From a virus (Duplodnaviria > Heunggongvirae > Uroviricota > Caudoviricetes): a stretch of DNA of 6,896 nucleotides. This document shows, in pieces, positions 278 to 5,941 of the stretch. The notes under the pieces were generated by a model, which was not told the origin of the DNA, did no database searches, and saw only the letters and a list, made by a program, of their open reading frames with translations. The stretch lies in the IMG/VR virus record IMGVR_UViG_3300007747_000052, one strand, 5' to 3'. The stretch's first letter is position 1; each line of letters opens with the position of its first letter. The position numbers and the translations under genes were made by a program.

Positions 278-923
278 TTAACCTGCGGCGCTGACAGCCA
301 CCGCAGCCACTGCCACAAAATCGCCGTCAGAAGTCATGCCCACAATGCTGACACTGCCCTGCTTCACGCCTTTCACCGTGGCCACAAGCCCGTTCAGGGT
401 CACCGTGGCAGTCCGTGGATCTGTCGAATGCACACTGATCGCTTTGTCACTGGCTCCGTCAGGTTTTACTGTAAAGGTCAGCGTGGTGGTTGCTCCCACT
501 TTTACACTGGCAGATGCCGGTGCCACCGTCAGCCCGGTAACGCTCACTGTTTCAGTGCCTTCCTCTGCCAGATACGGACGCCCCACACCGCTGATTTTCA
601 CGGTGCGGGTCATCACGTCTTTTGAGGCAATGGTTTTACCCAGTGAGCTCAGCCAGCCACGGAAAACATCAACAGTGCCGTTGGGATATTTGAACGGATT
701 TCTGCCCCTGGGTTGTCGTTTTCCAGTCTGCATCTTCATCATCGAGATAAGTGTCATCTTCTGCATCAGCGGTCATTTCGCCAGGTTGCAGATCCTTCAC
801 CATCGCAAGACGCAGCCAGTCAGTGTCCGATAAAGGGTTCGCAAACGCATCGCCCTTGCCGGTGTACATCCAGAACGTCGTTCCCGCACCTTTCGTTTTT
901 GCCAGTGGATTTGGTGTGGTCAT
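278..923 (-). pseudogene. Major tail protein, lambda gpV-like, with Ig-like (Big_2-type) C-terminal domain; reading frame is broken near 690..700
   Basis: AGGAGG then 5 nt then ATG at 923..921, immediately after the gpU-like stop (937..935). The N-terminal frame gives [76 protein letters not shown], then runs into a stop at 669..671. The homologous continuation [40 protein letters not shown]... plus an Ig-like tail is in a different frame (ORF 278..766). Both parts resemble lambda V as I remember it ([30 protein letters not shown]). Confidence 0.75.
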
Positions 924-1336: not shown

Positions 1337-1876
1337 CGGGTCAGCCATAACCTCAGTTGTTGTTTCAGTGCATACCCCAGCTGTTTCGGCATTTCCGCAG
1401 CAATGATGCGGTCGCGGGCATCTTCAAATGCCTGTGTCAGCGGTCCGGACAGCGGGATTTTCACTTTTTTCTTGGCCTGCCCTGATGGTCATGCCCTGTT
1501 GCAAAACGCGCTTCAGGAAGACGCCTCAGAACATGCCAGCGGCCATTCGCCAGTTGCTGAACAAATGCCCCCCGGAAAAAGTATTTTCCCACTCTCAGTC
1601 CTTCACCAGCACGCCGCCGTGTTGTGTTCAGTTTGATGGCGGGCAGATTGCCCCGGTTAACGCGGATCCTGGCCGTCATTTTTCCTGACGGACTGGCTTT
1701 AAACACCCGGACACGCTGACGTACCAGTTTCACGCAACGGTATTCCCGGCAACCTGCCGGGTGGCAACCGAGACCGCTTTCTGTGCCACACGGTTTATCG
1801 CCCATGCGCTGGCCTGTGGCACCATACGGGTATCAAGGCTGTTCAGATTGCGGATGGCATTCTCAAGCCCCTTCAT
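1333..1876 (-). pseudogene. Tail completion / minor tail protein, lambda gpZ-like; reading frame is interrupted twice (or is recoded)
   Basis: RBS AGAGGTG then ATG at 1876..1874. Frame A gives MKGLENAIRNLNSLDTRMVPQASAWAINRVAQKAVSVATRQVAGNTVA then TGA at 1732..1730. The homologous continuation VKLVRQRVRVFKASPSGKMTARIRVNRGNLPAIKLN...RGAFVQQLANGRWHVLRRL... is in frame B (ORF 1461..1805) and stops at 1463..1461. The C-terminal part [45 protein letters not shown] is in frame C, ending at TGA 1335..1333. All three segments match consecutive parts of lambda Z as recalled (IKVNRG.LP.IKL, GAF.QQL.NGRWHV, VKIP...PL..AF, LGYAL..QL). Confidence 0.65.
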
Positions 1877-1887
1877 CCCACACCTCT

Positions 1888-2163
1888 TTACTCAATAAAG
1901 ATCATTGGCTTACCGTTAAAGCGTTCATGCCGTGTGACCGTCCAATGTTGTCCGTCATAAACAACGCGATCCCCGCGCCGTGGGCGGTATCCCGAAGAAA
2001 ACACCACCAGAGAGACCGCAGGTCCGGACAGAGCATTCAGCTCTGCCAGTGTTTCTCCCGGGATCACAGTCATATCGACATCATTAATCGAGGCTGTCTT
2101 TCCCATCTTTCTGACCGTGATCGCATCCATACGCGCTGCCAGCCGGGAAAAGGGATCAGACAT
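1888..2163 (-). CDS. Head-tail joining protein, lambda gpFII-like
   Basis: 91-aa ORF MSDPFSRLAARMDAITVRKMGKTASI...RRGDRVVYDGQHWTVTRHERFNGKPMIFIE. It resembles lambda FII as recalled (AA..R.D..I....G.SA.I; RRGD...W.V) and sits in the FII position between the capsid genes and Z. The start ATG 2163..2161 overlaps the upstream gene's TGA (2158..2156) by 8 nt (ATGTCTGA). Confidence 0.7.
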   Translation of the reverse strand: MSDPFSRLAARMDAITVRKMGKTASINDVDMTVIPGETLAELNALSGPAVSLVVFSSGYRPRRGDRVVYDGQHWTVTRHERFNGKPMIFIE

Positions 2164-2479
2164 TGAGTTTTACCGGCACTTCTTCTGCACTGGTTCCGGC
2201 ATCTGCCCAGACAACCCCGACCAGCGGATCAGAGCCGCTGTTAGTCAGCTGAACTTTTCCGGACTTCAGATAAACCTTCTTACCCGTTTTCATGTCATCC
2301 GTTTTCAGCTTAGGCAGCATAAACACACCTTCGGTCAGGCCGTCGCCTGTTTCACCCTGTGGAATATCGGTCAGTGCCACCGCAAAAACATCACCCACCT
2401 GCACCAGATCTCCGCTGCTGATGGCTGCACTGGCAACAATCGCCACCGTTTTTCCTTCTTCTACAAAATTCTTTGCCAT
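2156..2479 (-). CDS. Small head-module protein, possibly a DUF2190-type capsid accessory or decoration-like protein; function uncertain
   Basis: 107-aa product from ATG 2479..2477 (MAKNFVEEGKTVAIVASAAISSGDLVQVGDVFAVALTDIPQGETGDGLTEGVFMLPKLKTDDMKTGKKVYL...VKLNV), preceded by GGAGA at good spacing. It lies between the capsid gene and the FII-like gene. The family assignment is from memory of the MAKN...TEGVF.LPK pattern and is tentative. The ORF-track start at 2524 would overlap the upstream terminator and lacks an RBS. Confidence 0.6.
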   Translation of the reverse strand: MAKNFVEEGKTVAIVASAAISSGDLVQVGDVFAVALTDIPQGETGDGLTEGVFMLPKLKTDDMKTGKKVYLKSGKVQLTNSGSDPLVGVVWADAGTSAEEVPVKLNV

Positions 2480-2520: not shown

Positions 2521-2545
2521 ACAAAAAAAGCCCTTACGGGCCATC
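2521..2545 (-). terminator. Putative weak rho-independent terminator or attenuator downstream of the major capsid gene
   Basis: Minus strand reads G-GCCC-GTAA-GGGC (4 GC pairs plus a G.U) followed by TTTTTTT (plus A-run 2523..2529), about 20 nt after the capsid ORF stop (2566..2568) and before the next gene's RBS. The stem is short, hence modest confidence. Confidence 0.45.
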
Positions 2546-2565: not shown

Positions 2566-4419
2566 TTACGCCGTACATTTCACCAGACCGCGGTGATCAA
2601 CTGGCGCGACACCGGCGTCAATACGCACTTTCGTTGTCACGCCATCCACACTGAAGCCCTCCATCTGATCAATATATGGCGTATCCACACCGTTGAGATA
2701 AGCCACTTCAATCGTATCGGAGCCTTTTGACGCAGCCAGGTAGAAGGTGGTCTGGCTGTTATCATCAAGACGAGGCTCTGCAATAACGGTCGCAAAATCT
2801 TTCACCGGGTTAATAATACCGGCGTTAATGTCAGCCCCCTTGACACTTGAGGAGCGAATGACCTGGTTAGCAACAGACTCCATCGCCGTCGGTACCAGTA
2901 CGAACGCAGGACGAATATTCAGATGACGCTCCCCCTCTTTCTGAACGCGCATCAACTGGCGGGCTTTATCCAGCGATGCCACGTCCATTGCAGCGCTCTC
3001 CAGTACGTTTGCATGTTTCGCTTTATCGAACAGACTTACATTATCTGTGGAGATTTTCGGGTTAGACGTCAGAATGGCATAAACCAGATCGGCAATAGTG
3101 GATTTCGCCGCACGGCCCAGTTTCATCGGGACATCGGTCAGCATATTCAAATCATCATTGATAATGGCCTGACGGGTGATACTGAACAGCTCGCCATAGG
3201 TCGCCAGTGCAATAGTGGCCTGTTTATCTCCGGTGGTGACGTATTTATATTCCGCCCCTTCACGCACCTGACGCAGAGCACTGAAGCCCCCCATACCCAC
3301 ACGATGGGCAATTTTAAAATCAGACAACTGACCTTTCCGCGTCCACTGTTCATAGGTTTCAGGGGCATCTTCCCAGCCCTGCAGAATGGCTTTGTTCGCA
3401 ACATCCAGCAGAATATTACCGAAGTCAGACGTACTGTGTGTGAACGCCGCACCGACCATCTGCATCGGGTTATAACTGGAAACCCCAATACCCCGTTCAG
3501 TCAGTGACATACGGGCATATTCACGCAGAGTCATCCCGTTGTAGACATTATCACGTTCGGTTTTTTCAAATCCGGCACGCGCCATCAGCGCCTGGCGGAT
3601 CCCGTCCCCCACAAAATTACCGTTACCGGCATAAATATGAGCCGGNNNNNNNNNNNNNCCGCCAAACATGGCAAACAGATCATTAATACCGTTTACACGC
3701 GCTTTTTGCTCTGCCAGTACCTGCGCACGGATACTGTTTTCATCCACCACTGGTGCTGCTGCCTGCACTGGCGTCCGGGGTGCTGCTGGTTCATCATCCG
3801 GTACGCGTGGAGCACTGTTGCGTGGCGGAGTAATCATGTTTCGAATGGATTCCGGCATCTTTTTAAATTCCTCTGTACGTTTTGACTGAATACATGCCAT
3901 TGCCTTAACGGCTGGCGTTACCTGATCAGCAAATCCATGAGCCAGACATTCGGCTCCGGACATCCAGGTCTCATCCGCCAGCATGGCAGCAATTTCATCG
4001 GTGGTTTTCCCGGTTTTCTGTGCATAAGCGGGTAACAGAACCGCCTCAACCTTATCGAGCAGGTCGGCATAGGTGCGCATGTCCTCCGCATCACCGCCCG
4101 TAAAGCCAAATGGTTTATGAATCATCATGAAGGTGTTTTCCGGCATAATGACCGGGTTTCCCACCATCGCAATGACCGACGCCATTGACGCCGCCACACC
4201 GTCGACATAAACGGTAATGGACGCACCATGTGTTTTCAGCGCATTAAAAATGGCGATGCCTTCAAAGACATCGCCACCCGGTGAATTGATATGGAGATTA
4301 ATGTGGGTGATATCGCCCAGTGCATTCAGATCACTGATAAACTGCTTCGCTGTAACCCCCCAGAAACCAATCTCGTCATAAATATAAATATCCGCGTCAC
4401 TCTGGTGACCAGCCTGCAT
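2566..4419 (-). CDS. Prohead protease (ClpP family) fused in frame to a scaffold-like linker and a major capsid protein domain
   Basis: 617-codon reading frame from ATG 4419..4417, 13 nt after the portal stop. N-terminal ~190 aa: IYIYDEIGFWGV...HINSPGGDVFEGIAIFNALK...VDGVAASMASVIAMVG...MMIHKPFGFTGG, i.e. ClpP-like Ser and His motifs. Then a Pro/Ala-rich linker (PPRNSAPRVPDDEPAAPRTPVQAAAPVV). The C-terminal ~360 aa (NGMTLREYARMSLTERGIGVSS...GADINAGIINPVKDFATVIAEPRLD...) looks to me like an HK97-type capsid protein, but that call is pattern recognition only. The frame across the N gap at 3646..3658 is assumed, not observed. The ORF-track extension to 4680 overlaps the portal gene and has no protease similarity. 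Confidence 0.75.
   Translation of the reverse strand: MQAGHQSDADIYIYDEIGFWGVTAKQFISDLNALGDITHINLHINSPGGDVFEGIAIFNALKTHGASITVYVDGVAASMASVIAMVGNPVIMPENTFMMIHKPFGFTGGDAEDMRTYADLLDKVEAVLLPAYAQKTGKTTDEIAAMLADETWMSGAECLAHGFADQVTPAVKAMACIQSKRTEEFKKMPESIRNMITPPRNSAPRVPDDEPAAPRTPVQAAAPVVDENSIRAQVLAEQKARVNGINDLFAMFGXXXXXPAHIYAGNGNFVGDGIRQALMARAGFEKTERDNVYNGMTLREYARMSLTERGIGVSSYNPMQMVGAAFTHSTSDFGNILLDVANKAILQGWEDAPETYEQWTRKGQLSDFKIAHRVGMGGFSALRQVREGAEYKYVTTGDKQATIALATYGELFSITRQAIINDDLNMLTDVPMKLGRAAKSTIADLVYAILTSNPKISTDNVSLFDKAKHANVLESAAMDVASLDKARQLMRVQKEGERHLNIRPAFVLVPTAMESVANQVIRSSSVKGADINAGIINPVKDFATVIAEPRLDDNSQTTFYLAASKGSDTIEVAYLNGVDTPYIDQMEGFSVDGVTTKVRIDAGVAPVDHRGLVKCTA
3646..3658. other. Assembly gap (13 N) inside the protease-capsid ORF
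   Basis: Run of 13 n characters in the sequence. True length and content are unknown, and frame continuity across it cannot be verified. Confidence 0.99.
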
Positions 4420-4432
4420 CCTGAACCAGGAA

Positions 4433-5941
4433 TTATTCTTCGGACTGGTCGTCGGTGTGCTGCGGCTCCTGTCGTTTCGTTGCGGCACTGCTGCCTCCTT
4501 TATCACTGGCCGGATCGGTATCAAATACCAGATCCAGCTTGCGGTTTTCATCAATTTCGGCCTTGCGCCGACGTTTGACATCATCCGGATTACGACCACC
4601 AGCACGTACCCAGTCTGATTCTGTCGCCGCTCCACCACGAATCTGGATTTTCCAGGCCTCAGCCTCCTTAACAGGGTCAATCCACGGCATCACTGGTCCG
4701 GAATACACCGCGGTATACAGTGAAGAACGGTCAAGATCACGGGGTAGCCTGATAACACCGGATGCCACAGCCTGTTTCAGCCATGCACGATACATCGGGC
4801 GGGTGACGGCACCAATAAACCAGTCCTGCAGGATCAGGTAGCCATCAGTAGACTCAACCAGTTCCTGACGCTGGGCGCTGTAAGTGCCGTTATAGTTGCG
4901 TGCCGTACTGGAAAAACTCAGACGACTGCCCGCCGCCACGGCACGCAACTGACCATTACGAAAAGTTTCAAGATTAGGATTGGGGCGATCCGACTTCACC
5001 ATTCCAATTTCTTCGCCGGGTTTCAGATCGTCGTAAATAATGCCTGGCTGAATGGTAAGCTCGCGTTCCTTATCCTTGCTGCCATTACCATCCGGTTCAT
5101 AGCTCTGCCCGTCGCCTTTCCGGATGTACATCCCCAGAGCAGCGGCGATCCTTGCTGCAGTCAGCTCAGAATCTTCATACTCTTTCAGGGCACTGAGGCG
5201 GATCAGCACACCGGACAACAAAGACGTCCCGCGCATCTGGTGCAGACGGCGAACAAATTTAAGATGCAGCATTCGCTCTGCATCCACTTCTTTGGTTTCC
5301 ATCTGCCGTCCGGATACGGGACGGCTTTTATACACCAGATATTTTTCGGGACGCCCCCAGTCATCAACAAACACGCCCTGATTCAGCCTGTTGCTCTCAT
5401 CACTGGTCATGGGAATAAAGTCTGGCTCGAGCGCCTCCAGCCAGAAATGAACATCGGCAGAAGGCGTCAGGCTGTTTATGCGCCCGGAAACCATCTGGGC
5501 AAACACCTCACCATCGCGCAGCCAGGTACGCAGCATCAGACGTTCCAGCATCGGACGGGTAAACTGCCCGGTGACTTCCGGGCTGACAGACCATTCACTC
5601 CATCGGGTGCGAATCTCCGCTGCCAGATCACGGGCAATGGCCCCATTGCGTAATACCGGATGTGGCTCGACAATAATCCCGTTTTTCCCCACCACCCGTT
5701 CTTCCAGCTTGTCAAATACACCAATAACCAGATCGTGGTTGTTATCAAGGTAACGGGCCTGCTCACGTAACGACACGGCCCCGTACTGGCTTAACTGGTC
5801 GGCAGTTCGGTTTTCCCGCCGGGCTTTGTGTGTCCGCGTCGTTTTTACGGCCTCATAAGCCTGGATCACCGCACGGGAACGCAGCCTTGCCGCTTTCCAT
5901 CCTGGTGAAAAAACGCCAATCACATCATCAATAATTGCCAT
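4433..5941 (-). CDS. Portal protein, lambda gpB-like
   Basis: 502-aa product from ATG 5941..5939 (MAIIDDVIGVFSPGWKAARLRSRA...), stop TAA at 4435..4433. It sits in the portal position between the W-like gene and the protease/capsid gene, with size and overall composition similar to lambda B. The ATG overlaps the gpW-like TGA as ATGA; GAGG lies 6 nt upstream. The ORF-track start at 6013 would overlap the W-like gene by 70 nt. Confidence 0.85.
   Translation of the reverse strand: MAIIDDVIGVFSPGWKAARLRSRAVIQAYEAVKTTRTHKARRENRTADQLSQYGAVSLREQARYLDNNHDLVIGVFDKLEERVVGKNGIIVEPHPVLRNGAIARDLAAEIRTRWSEWSVSPEVTGQFTRPMLERLMLRTWLRDGEVFAQMVSGRINSLTPSADVHFWLEALEPDFIPMTSDESNRLNQGVFVDDWGRPEKYLVYKSRPVSGRQMETKEVDAERMLHLKFVRRLHQMRGTSLLSGVLIRLSALKEYEDSELTAARIAAALGMYIRKGDGQSYEPDGNGSKDKERELTIQPGIIYDDLKPGEEIGMVKSDRPNPNLETFRNGQLRAVAAGSRLSFSSTARNYNGTYSAQRQELVESTDGYLILQDWFIGAVTRPMYRAWLKQAVASGVIRLPRDLDRSSLYTAVYSGPVMPWIDPVKEAEAWKIQIRGGAATESDWVRAGGRNPDDVKRRRKAEIDENRKLDLVFDTDPASDKGGSSAATKRQEPQHTDDQSEE

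What the first reader, a model, noticed from the sequence alone, without database searches (positions are those of the whole stretch)
2566..4419. Prohead protease, linker and major capsid domain in a single reading frame
Lambda makes its protease (C), scaffold (Nu3) and capsid protein (E) from separate or nested genes. Here a ClpP-type protease domain, a Pro/Ala-rich linker and a capsid-like domain lie in one 617-codon frame with no internal stop or restart. If real, the capsid subunit carries its own maturation protease and scaffold as a cleavable N-terminal extension. My impression is that similar fused head proteins exist in some enterobacterial prophages, but I cannot confirm that or the domain boundaries without a search. 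The N gap falls in the linker/scaffold region, exactly where a stop plus restart could be hidden.
Basis: partly seen in the sequence, partly recalled or inferred. Interest (0 to 1): 0.55.

Follow-up and report, generated by a model that had tools for sequence, protein, structure and literature searches.

The report
Fused phage protease–scaffold–capsid gene
This is an ordinary, already catalogued prophage head gene in which the maturation protease, a scaffold segment and the capsid protein share one reading frame, and comparison across species suggests it also has a conserved internal start that would make a protease-free scaffold–capsid protein, much as phage lambda nests Nu3 inside C.

Summary
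On the minus strand, one frame encodes three parts. They are a ClpP-like serine protease with an intact Ser-His-Asp triad, a variable Pro/Ala-rich linker with a helical scaffold segment, and an HK97-fold capsid domain.

It is a known family: NCBIfam NF045540 [quoted passage not shown], 909.9 bits against a cutoff of 475. It occurs in 2085 of 5426 complete E. coli genomes and in phages mEp460 and cdtI.

- **N run:** in relatives identical on both flanks, the 13 N stand for 118 bases. They are in frame and contain no stop. The true product is therefore 35 residues longer than the window suggests.
- **Start codon:** the likely start is GTG at 4488, preceded by AAGGAGG.
- **Internal start:** I do not agree that there is no restart. 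An in-frame ATG at 3858 is invariant in 76 of 76 distinct sequences. All 76 keep a Shine-Dalgarno core upstream, and the gene's strongest synonymous-site constraint lies there. This points to a nested scaffold–capsid product, as with lambda C/Nu3. It is inferred, not shown.

The fusion itself is already known. The nested start is the only possibly new point.

The parts
2566..4488 (-). Whole fusion gene (long form), from GTG start to TAA stop. It has 640 codons in the window as given and 675 aa in gap-free relatives.
   Evidence: ORF. PGAP CDS WP_001442205.1 lies at the matching place in L001. NF045540 scores 909.9 bits against a cutoff of 475. The start site is supported.
4494..4500 (-). Shine-Dalgarno AAGGAGG, 5 nt upstream of GTG 4488. 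It lies inside the 3' end of the portal gene.
   Evidence: Read. Duplex energy with the 16S 3' end is -11.6 kcal/mol. The AAAGGAGG element is kept in most Enterobacterales loci.
3913..4425 (-). ClpP-like (peptidase S14) protease domain, residues 22-192 of the 675-aa numbering. Ser101 is at 4186-4188, His124 at 4117-4119 and Asp172 at 3973-3975.
3868..3873 (-). Internal Shine-Dalgarno-like GAGGAA, 9 nt upstream of the internal ATG (11 nt after the GAGG core).
   Evidence: 76 of 76 distinct sequences keep a GGAG/GAGG/AGGA core here, although the amino acids vary (EE, ED, QE, KD, KE, GD, EN). Codon 206 is GAG in 64 of 64 Glu, against 37% GAG elsewhere.
3856..3858 (-). Internal in-frame ATG (Met211), the proposed start of the nested short form.
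   Evidence: ATG is followed by CCN in 76 of 76 sequences. Synonymous identity peaks at 0.72 on codons 202-210, against a mean of 0.45 and sd of 0.057. Local mRNA is weakly structured and AT-rich.
2566..3858 (-). Proposed nested short form: linker, scaffold and capsid without the protease. It is about 465 aa in gap-free relatives.
   Evidence: Inferred. No protein data are available.
3748..3831 (-). Pro/Ala-rich, hypervariable, disordered linker (residues 220-247).
   Evidence: Indels and low conservation. pLDDT is about 35.
3622..3741 (-). Helical scaffold (delta-domain-like) segment followed by a disordered stretch (residues 250-324). The disordered stretch is the candidate region for maturation cleavage. 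This part contains the N run.
   Evidence: AlphaFold predicts helices 250-273, 280-288 and 294-308 at pLDDT 82-95, and a disordered stretch at 309-324. The gap content comes from relatives.
3646..3658 (.). Run of 13 N. It stands for 118 bases (residues 277-316) in relatives that are identical on both flanks.
2569..3621 (-). Major capsid protein domain (residues 325-675) with an HK97-like fold.
4433..5941 (-). Lambda-type portal gene immediately upstream. Its last 56 nt overlap the fusion gene.
   Evidence: PGAP annotation. phrog_21 portal, 2.5e-139.
2156..2479 (-). Head decoration (cement) protein gene immediately downstream (DUF2190 / Phage_cement_2).
   Evidence: phrog_122 head decoration, 4.9e-47. 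PGAP annotates it as DUF2190. The same neighbour is present in distant loci.
2523..2542 (-). GC hairpin followed by a T7 run between the fusion gene and the decoration gene. It looks like an intrinsic terminator.
   Evidence: Sequence read. The matching site is annotated as a rho-independent terminator in phage mEp460.

Best explanation
The gene is a member of the known 'ClpP-like prohead protease/major capsid protein fusion' family of lambda-like prophages. One frame encodes four parts: a ClpP-fold serine protease, a disordered Pro/Ala linker, a short helical scaffold (delta-like) segment and an HK97-fold capsid domain.

It is most likely read from two in-frame starts.
- GTG 4488 would give the full protease-scaffold-capsid chain (675 aa in gap-free relatives).
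- The conserved internal ATG 3858 would give a scaffold-capsid chain of about 465 aa without the protease.

Both products end in the same capsid domain, so they would co-assemble on the portal into a procapsid. The scaffold and protease parts would point inward. The tethered protease would then cut away everything N-terminal to the capsid domain, probably in the disordered stretch at residues 309-324. After that the shell would mature and bind the decoration protein encoded next door.

Shown here: the domain identities, the intact triad, the single frame in relatives, and the conservation of both start signals. Inferred: use of the internal start, the ratio of the two products, co-assembly and the cleavage site.

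The confidence of 0.6 is for the whole statement, including use of the internal start. Family membership and domain architecture alone I put at about 0.97.
For: **Family membership**
- NF045540 scores 909.9 bits against a cutoff of 475.
- PHROG 133 matches over the full length.
- PGAP annotates the same gene in 100%-identical E. coli chromosomes.

**Domains**
- Pfam.
- ClpP alignment with Ser, His and Asp matched.
- AlphaFold model at pLDDT 80.7 with clear domain boundaries.
- Profile hits to PDB Mu-gpT-type capsid proteins.

**Single frame**
- The gap equals 118 in-frame bases without a stop in relatives.
- 76 of 80 species-level loci are open throughout.
- The head module contains no separate protease, scaffold or capsid gene.

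**Internal start**
- The ATG is invariant in 76 of 76 sequences, and all 76 keep a Shine-Dalgarno core. No other conserved Met column exceeds 7 sequences with such a core.
- The strongest synonymous constraint in the gene lies on codons 202-210.
- Glu206 is GAG in 64 of 64, against 37% overall.
- The core persists where the amino acids change.
- Local mRNA is weakly structured: -3.1 against -7.4 kcal/mol.
- The same AAGGAG-N6-ATG-CCN signal follows the protease domain in three relatives fused to an HK97-type S78 protease, two of them nearly identical. It also occurs in distant ClpP-type relatives.

**Precedent**
- Lambda nu3 is nested in frame inside C.
Against: - No protein-level data exist, so use of the internal ATG is inferred from conservation only.
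- The Shine-Dalgarno core sits 9-11 nt from the ATG, which is on the long side, and it is weaker (-6.0) than the upstream one (-11.6).
- The segment SKRxEEFxKMP is also conserved as protein, so part of the constraint could be structural or a cleavage signal.
- Sequences in the codon alignment are related, so the counts are not independent events.
- The short 'MP...' homologues in the databases turned out to be mostly calls truncated by contig ends, not free-standing genes.
- The window's own gap sequence is unknown.
- This prophage copy has lesions in its tail genes, so the gene may not be in use here.
Confidence: 0.6

Rival explanations
1. Only the full-length chain is made. Every capsid subunit carries its own protease and scaffold as a cleavable N-terminal extension. 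About 415 protease domains would fill a T=7 procapsid and remove themselves.
For: - There is one uninterrupted frame.
- Databases annotate a single CDS.
- The upstream start has the stronger ribosome-binding site.
- By my own rough volume estimate (not a tool result), about 35 kDa of internal cargo per subunit would fit a T=7 procapsid. The load is comparable to P22 scaffold.
Against: This reading does not explain several observations: the invariant ATG-CCN with a conserved Shine-Dalgarno core just after the protease domain, the absolute GAG choice at codon 206, the local peak of synonymous constraint, and the weakly structured AT-rich context. It also does not explain why the same signal appears in fusions to an unrelated protease family.
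Confidence: 0.3
2. The conserved GAGGA...ATG-CCN segment is not a start site. It would be a protein-level or elongation-level feature: a protease recognition or autocleavage motif, a docking helix, or an internal Shine-Dalgarno-like pause that lets the protease domain fold before the linker emerges.
For: - The peptide SKR-x-EEF-x-K-MP is conserved at the amino-acid level.
- AlphaFold places short helices there at moderate confidence.
Against: - A protein-level motif does not explain the codon-level constraint: GAG in 64 of 64, and the core kept through amino-acid changes.
- A pause site does not need an invariant ATG 9-11 nt downstream.
- Gene finders independently choose this Met as a start on truncated contigs.
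Confidence: 0.1
3. In this particular genome the N run hides a stop and restart, or a frameshift. The protease/scaffold and the capsid protein would then be separate genes, or the gene would be broken.
For: - The gap is not length-faithful (13 N for 118 bases).
- The window differs from every complete E. coli genome by deletions in the tail genes, so this copy or its assembly is imperfect.
- One old metagenome contig shows the two halves in different frames.
Against: - Outside the gap the gene is 100% identical to L001.
- 118 minus 13 is 105, a multiple of 3, so the frames on the two sides agree.
- None of the close relatives has a stop there, and 76 of 80 loci are open throughout.
Confidence: 0.04

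Closest known systems
NCBIfam NF045540 'ClpP-like prohead protease/major capsid protein fusion protein' (for example WP_001442205.1, mEp460 gp05, cdtI 'protease/scaffold protein')
   Same: Same gene. Identity is 99-100% outside the gap. Domain order is the same. The position between the lambda-type portal gene and the DUF2190 decoration gene is the same.
   Different: Nothing in the sequence differs. The records annotate one product only and disagree on the start: 675 aa in PGAP against 652 aa in mEp460. None marks the internal start proposed here.
Phage lambda C / Nu3 / E (S49 protease with the nested scaffold Nu3, and a separate capsid gene E)
   Same: - The protease gene follows the portal gene and overlaps its end.
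- It uses a GTG start with a strong Shine-Dalgarno sequence.
- An in-frame nested start just after the protease domain gives a scaffold product.
- A Thr/Ala/Pro-rich stretch is followed by helices.
   Different: - The protease family is S14 (ClpP-like), not S49.
- The capsid domain is appended in the same frame instead of being a separate gene after D.
- Homology of the scaffold segment to Nu3 was not shown (E 0.44 and 0.37).
- The capsid domain shows no detectable sequence similarity to gpE.
HK97 gp5 (capsid protein with an N-terminal delta scaffold domain) together with the gp4 protease
   Same: A helical scaffold segment is fused to the N-terminus of an HK97-fold capsid domain. It would be removed by a prohead protease (established knowledge for HK97; the architecture here comes).
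   Different: In HK97 the protease is a separate gene of family S78. Here it is fused upstream and belongs to the ClpP family. Sister proteins of this capsid family are fused to S78 or S49 proteases instead.
[quoted passage not shown]
   Same: These are published cases of protease, scaffold and HK97-like capsid subunit fused in a single gene (PMC7302621, PMC5513430, PMC9671004).
   Different: The hosts and sequence families differ. Relatedness was not tested here. Those papers call the fusion unusual and do not mention an internal start in the passages read.
Cellular ClpP (TIGR00493)
   Same: Same fold and catalytic triad.
   Different: The score of 59.8 bits is far below the equivalog cutoff of 308.6. 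It is a phage head-maturation branch (NF045542), fused to a capsid protein. There is no evidence of an ATPase partner.

Membership tests
NF045540 ClpP-like prohead protease/MCP fusion | Whole-protein HMM score above the curated cutoff | tested here: met
   909.9 bits against a cutoff of 475, even with the gap.
NF045540 ClpP-like prohead protease/MCP fusion | N-terminal ClpP-related head maturation protease domain with a Ser-His-Asp triad | tested here: met
   NF045542 scores 215.9 bits against a cutoff of 120. Ser101, His124 and Asp172 are present and conserved.
NF045540 ClpP-like prohead protease/MCP fusion | C-terminal major capsid domain (HK97-like fold) | tested here: met
NF045540 ClpP-like prohead protease/MCP fusion | Both domains in one uninterrupted frame | tested here: inconclusive
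   The frame is open on both sides and the two sides agree in frame. However, 13 N replace 118 bases in the window itself. There is no stop in relatives identical on both flanks.
NF045540 ClpP-like prohead protease/MCP fusion | Position in the head module between the portal and decoration genes, with no separate capsid or scaffold gene | tested here: met
   The same synteny is seen in distant loci.
Lambda C/Nu3-type nested protease/scaffold gene | In-frame internal start with its own ribosome-binding site after the protease domain | tested here: met
   Comparative evidence only.
Lambda C/Nu3-type nested protease/scaffold gene | Two protein products actually made from one frame | not testable with these tools
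   This needs proteomics, N-terminal sequencing or initiation-site ribosome profiling.
Lambda C/Nu3-type nested protease/scaffold gene | S49 (SppA-type) protease and sequence homology to Nu3 | tested here: not met
   The protease is S14. Comparison with Nu3 gives BLASTP E 0.44 and hhalign E 0.37.
HK97-type delta-domain capsid protein | Helical N-terminal scaffold segment contiguous with the capsid domain | tested here: met
   AlphaFold predicts helices at 250-308, followed by a disordered stretch at 309-324 and then the capsid fold.
HK97-type delta-domain capsid protein | Removal of the N-terminal segment by the prohead protease after assembly | not testable with these tools
   No virion protein data were found in the library.
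Cellular ClpP (TIGR00493 equivalog) | Score above the equivalog cutoff | tested here: not met
   59.8 bits against a cutoff of 308.6.

The most novel reading that the evidence does not exclude
Protease-capsid fusion genes of this capsid family may be two-product nested genes. They occur with ClpP-type, HK97-type (S78) and SppA-type (S49) proteases, and the internal start signal was seen at DNA level in the ClpP and S78 types only. A conserved internal Shine-Dalgarno plus ATG just after the protease domain would give a protease-free scaffold-capsid subunit. The full-length chain would then be a minority subunit that delivers the protease into the procapsid by being a capsid subunit itself. This would extend the lambda C/Nu3 principle to the capsid protein and would explain how the ratio of protease to capsid subunit is set. 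Current annotation shows one product only, and I found no paper that describes this.
Probability: 0.6. Interest if true: 0.5.

Novelty: already known. Interest (0 to 1): 0.3.

Why it matters
The fusion itself adds nothing new. It has a curated NCBI family, is present in more than a third of complete E. coli genomes, and similar fusions are described in actinobacteriophages.

The useful results are corrections:
- the gap hides 35 codons and no stop;
- the start is probably GTG 4488;
- the gene probably has a second, internal start.

If that internal start is used, thousands of database entries describe only one of two products. The gene would also show a simple way to load a fixed minority of protease into a procapsid, by making the protease a longer version of the capsid subunit. 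That can be tested directly in inducible phages such as mEp460 or cdtI.

Tried and rejected
- **First AlphaFold run.** The alignment was shallow (17 sequences at 75-96% identity). The model had pLDDT 34.9 and was unusable. The run was repeated with 106 diverse sequences.
- **Sequence search of the PDB with the single protein.** It found only ClpP. A profile of diverse capsid domains was needed.
- **Short 'MP...' homologues (444-471 aa) as free-standing scaffold-capsid genes.** Two of the three looked up start at a contig end. The third is an old contig with a frame change between the halves. They are therefore not evidence for split genes.
- **Homology of the scaffold segment to lambda Nu3, and of the capsid domain to gpE.** Neither was significant.
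- **An inversion at window 1465-1641.** Rejected. It is a diverged mosaic patch.
- **Literature.** Ten searches found no experimental work on this E. coli family and nothing on an internal start. Liu and Mushegian 2004 could not be read under the PMC id I recalled.
Full report
**1. Observation**

The minus strand carries an open frame from ATG 4419 to the stop at 2566-2568. It has 617 codons, 5 of them ambiguous because of a run of 13 N at 3646-3658. The frame stays open further upstream, to 4680.

Pfam places a Clp protease domain at residues 23-168 (4e-36) and a phage capsid domain, Phage_capsid_4, at 319-614 (1.4e-54). A weaker Mu-like gpT hit is also present. The segment between the two domains is rich in Pro and Ala. 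It is on the minus strand, which the finding did not state.

**2. Identity**

NCBIfam model NF045540, [quoted passage not shown], matches with 909.9 bits against a curated cutoff of 475. The sister model NF045541 and the domain model NF045542, "head maturation protease, ClpP-related", also match. PHROG 133 matches over the full length.

The DNA is 99-100% identical to prophages in E. coli chromosomes. 2085 of 5426 complete genomes carry a match, and PGAP names the gene with the family name. It is also 98-99% identical to phages mEp460, cdtI, Tritos, Ayreon and phi458. There the same gene is variously called protease, scaffold, Nu3 or major capsid protein. Shiga-toxin phages match at about 79%.

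The neighbours are the lambda-type head module: large terminase, a small W-like protein, the portal, this gene, and then a DUF2190 decoration protein and tail genes. The module has no separate protease, scaffold or capsid gene.

**3. The gap**

The two flanks of the N run occur in L001 (E. coli FDAARGOS_536) and in mEp460 118 bases apart, not 13. The extra 105 bases keep the frame and contain no stop. They encode GRYQALQAQCLADPECSLEQAREKLLNEMGRESTPSNKNT. This accounts for the 35-residue difference between the window's product and the 652-position family model.

Outside the gap the gene is identical to L001. It cannot be excluded for this genome without sequencing.

**4. Start codon**

PGAP starts the gene 23 codons upstream of ATG 4419, at a GTG (window 4488). 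This overlaps the portal gene by 56 nt. The mEp460 record uses the ATG.

The GTG is preceded by AAGGAGG and a 5-nt spacer, with duplex energy -11.6 kcal/mol. The ATG has no good site (-2.2). In 76 distinct sequences from other species, a GTG or ATG with AAAGGAGG-like sequence is kept 31-38 codons before the conserved Asp33. The column of ATG 4419 is Ile or Leu in 27 of them.

The residues between the two candidate starts (NSWFRMQA) form the first strand of the protease fold in the model, and they align with WYxIRA in distant relatives. I take GTG 4488 as the start. Lambda C likewise starts with GTG after a strong Shine-Dalgarno sequence and overlaps the end of the portal gene B.

**5. Domains and fold**

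A first AlphaFold run with a shallow alignment failed at pLDDT 34.9. With 106 diverse fusion proteins the model reached pLDDT 80.7. Its parts, in 675-aa numbering, are:

| Residues | Feature |
|---|---|
| 22-192 | ClpP fold, pLDDT about 90 |
| 193-219 | two short helices of moderate confidence |
| 220-247 | disordered; this is the hypervariable Pro/Ala linker with indels |
| 250-308 | three confident helices, a scaffold or delta-like segment; the N run falls here |
| 309-324 | disordered, but with conserved residues |
| 325-675 | capsid domain with a low-confidence E-loop |

A sequence profile of diverse capsid domains hits solved Mu-gpT-type capsid proteins 8rkc/8rkx (3.9e-11) and 9jod (1.5e-9).

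The catalytic Ser101, His124 and Asp172 align with the ClpP triad. Ser101 and His124 are invariant and Asp172 is at least 90% conserved in 106 sequences. The protein is far below the cutoffs of the cellular ClpP models.

**6. Distribution**

An exhaustive search with the capsid part finds 10,633 cluster representatives. Among the best 150, most are 620-790 aa with the capsid domain at the C-terminal end. 83 have a ClpP-like N-terminus. Others carry an HK97-type Peptidase_S78 or a lambda C-type Peptidase_S49 domain instead. A few have only a scaffold-like extension or none. The same capsid family has thus been joined to three different protease families.

In one genome per species, 80 loci were recovered from Enterobacterales, Pasteurellaceae, Pseudomonas, Vibrionaceae, Shewanella and others. 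76 keep one open frame through all parts.

**7. A conserved internal start**

I made a codon alignment of 76 distinct coding sequences and measured how often sequences with the same amino acid also use the same codon.

- The mean over 9-codon windows is 0.45 (sd 0.057).
- The highest peak in the whole gene, 0.72, lies on codons 202-210.
- The only other region above 0.6 is the 5' end, which overlaps the portal gene.

Codon 211 is ATG in 76 of 76 sequences and is always followed by a Pro codon. Nine to eleven nucleotides upstream, every sequence keeps a GGAG, GAGG or AGGA core. The encoded residues vary: Glu-Glu, Glu-Asp, Gln-Glu, Lys-Asp, Lys-Glu, Gly-Asp and Glu-Asn.

Where residue 206 is Glu, its codon is GAG in 64 of 64 cases. 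At 13 other conserved Glu columns GAG makes up 5-57%, and it is 37% overall. No other conserved Met column has more than 7 sequences with such a core.

The 40 nt around this ATG fold weakly (-3.1 against -7.4 kcal/mol gene-wide) and are AT-rich (63% against 48%).

The same signal appears outside this subfamily:
- In three fusions to an S78 protease, two of them nearly identical, the sequence right after the protease domain is AAAAAGGAGA(C/T)TACC or AAAAGGAGAATCCC followed by ATG CCN.
- In distant ClpP-type relatives it is GGAG followed by ATG CCN.

In the window these elements are GAGGAA at 3873-3868 and ATG at 3858-3856.

These are the marks of a translation start. They suggest a second product that begins MPESIRNM... 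and consists of linker, scaffold and capsid without the protease. It would be about 465 aa in the gap-free gene. This is comparative inference. No protein data were available, related sequences are not independent, and the local peptide is also conserved.

**8. Likely mechanism**

By analogy with lambda, where nu3 is nested in frame within C, and with HK97, where the scaffold is the N-terminal delta domain of the capsid protein (established knowledge), I propose the following.

- Long and short chains share the capsid domain and co-assemble on the portal.
- The scaffold helices and the protease domains of the long chains face the interior.
- The protease cuts off everything N-terminal of the capsid domain, probably in the disordered but conserved stretch 309-324.
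- The fragments leave, the shell matures, and it binds the decoration protein.

The alternative is that only the long chain is made, so that each subunit carries its own protease. This is physically possible by my own rough volume estimate, but it leaves the conserved internal signal unexplained.

In lambda itself a strong AGGAGG plus ATG precedes C codon 309 (MTKETQ...), at the same relative place. Homology between that lambda segment and the one here could not be shown.

**9. What is known**

Fusions of protease, scaffold and HK97-like capsid subunit in one gene have been described as an unusual feature in several groups:
- Microbacterium cluster EE and EL phages (PMC7302621);
- Arthrobacter clusters AM, AU and AN and Rhodococcus phage RRH1 (PMC5513430);
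- small-genome siphoviruses, where they are called common (PMC9671004).

For the E. coli family the knowledge sits in annotation resources. I found no experimental paper and no mention of an internal start in ten full-text searches. That library lacks most subscription journals.

**10. Verdict**

The finding is real and correctly read in outline. It is an already known and very common gene, so its interest is low. Three points add something: the gap hides 35 codons and no stop, the start is probably 69 nt further upstream, and there is a well-supported but unproven internal start. If used, that start would make this a nested two-product gene.

Noticed in passing
window 690-700, 1730-1736 and 1465-1641: Compared with L001, the window lacks 98 bases at about 694 (major tail protein gene) and 28 bases at about 1733 (tail protein gene). 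It also has a diverged patch with indels at 1465-1641. The tail ORFs are split as a result (278-766 / 669-929; 1333-1464 / 1461-1805 / 1730-1876). The ten best-matching complete E. coli genomes listed all span about 2704 bases for this 2560-base stretch, so none of them shares the deletions. Either this prophage copy is defective or the assembly is faulty.
   Followed up: partly
window 2523-2542 (minus strand): A GC hairpin (GCCC GTAA GGGC) followed by T7 lies between the capsid gene stop and the decoration gene. It is annotated as a rho-independent terminator in mEp460. A second hairpin (CAGCCCC TGAAC GGGGCTG) follows, just before the decoration gene's ribosome-binding site. A terminator in the middle of a late operon might tune the ratio of capsid to decoration protein.
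   Followed up: no
proteins P0142, P0145, P0166, P0179, P0212 (S78); P0186, P0233 (S49); loci L086-L088: The same capsid family (Phage_capsid_4) is fused to three unrelated or distantly related prohead protease families: ClpP S14, HK97-type S78 and SppA/lambda C-type S49. The fusion always lies in the same head module between a lambda-type portal gene and a Phage_cement_2 gene. This suggests repeated protease swapping upstream of a constant scaffold-capsid unit.
   Followed up: partly
L089 (phage lambda) 2743-2745, that is C codon 309: The RefSeq lambda record annotates nu3 from 5132 (201 aa), where the ribosome-binding site is weak (-2.7). A strong AGGAGG with a 5-nt spacer precedes the in-frame ATG 70 codons further on (MTKETQ..., 131 aa). 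From memory, the 131-aa form is the one usually given for Nu3.
   Followed up: partly
L003, L005, L009: Contigs filed as a Bacillota MAG, a soil 'Proteobacteria' MAG and a Geobacteraceae MAG carry this gene. L003 and L005 match the E. coli form at 99% identity and L009 at 73%. They are probably mis-binned or contaminating enterobacterial prophage contigs.
   Followed up: no
window 4433-4488: The fusion gene's GTG start and its Shine-Dalgarno sequence lie inside the last 56 nt of the portal gene, in another frame. Synonymous variation is also reduced over the first 15 or so codons of the fusion gene. This fits translational coupling of the portal and the protease-capsid gene, as with lambda B and C (20-nt overlap).
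   Followed up: partly
L083 3230-4030: In one 454-era metagenome contig the ClpP part and the capsid part lie in different frames, with the break in the linker. This could be a homopolymer sequencing error or a naturally split version of the gene.
   Followed up: no
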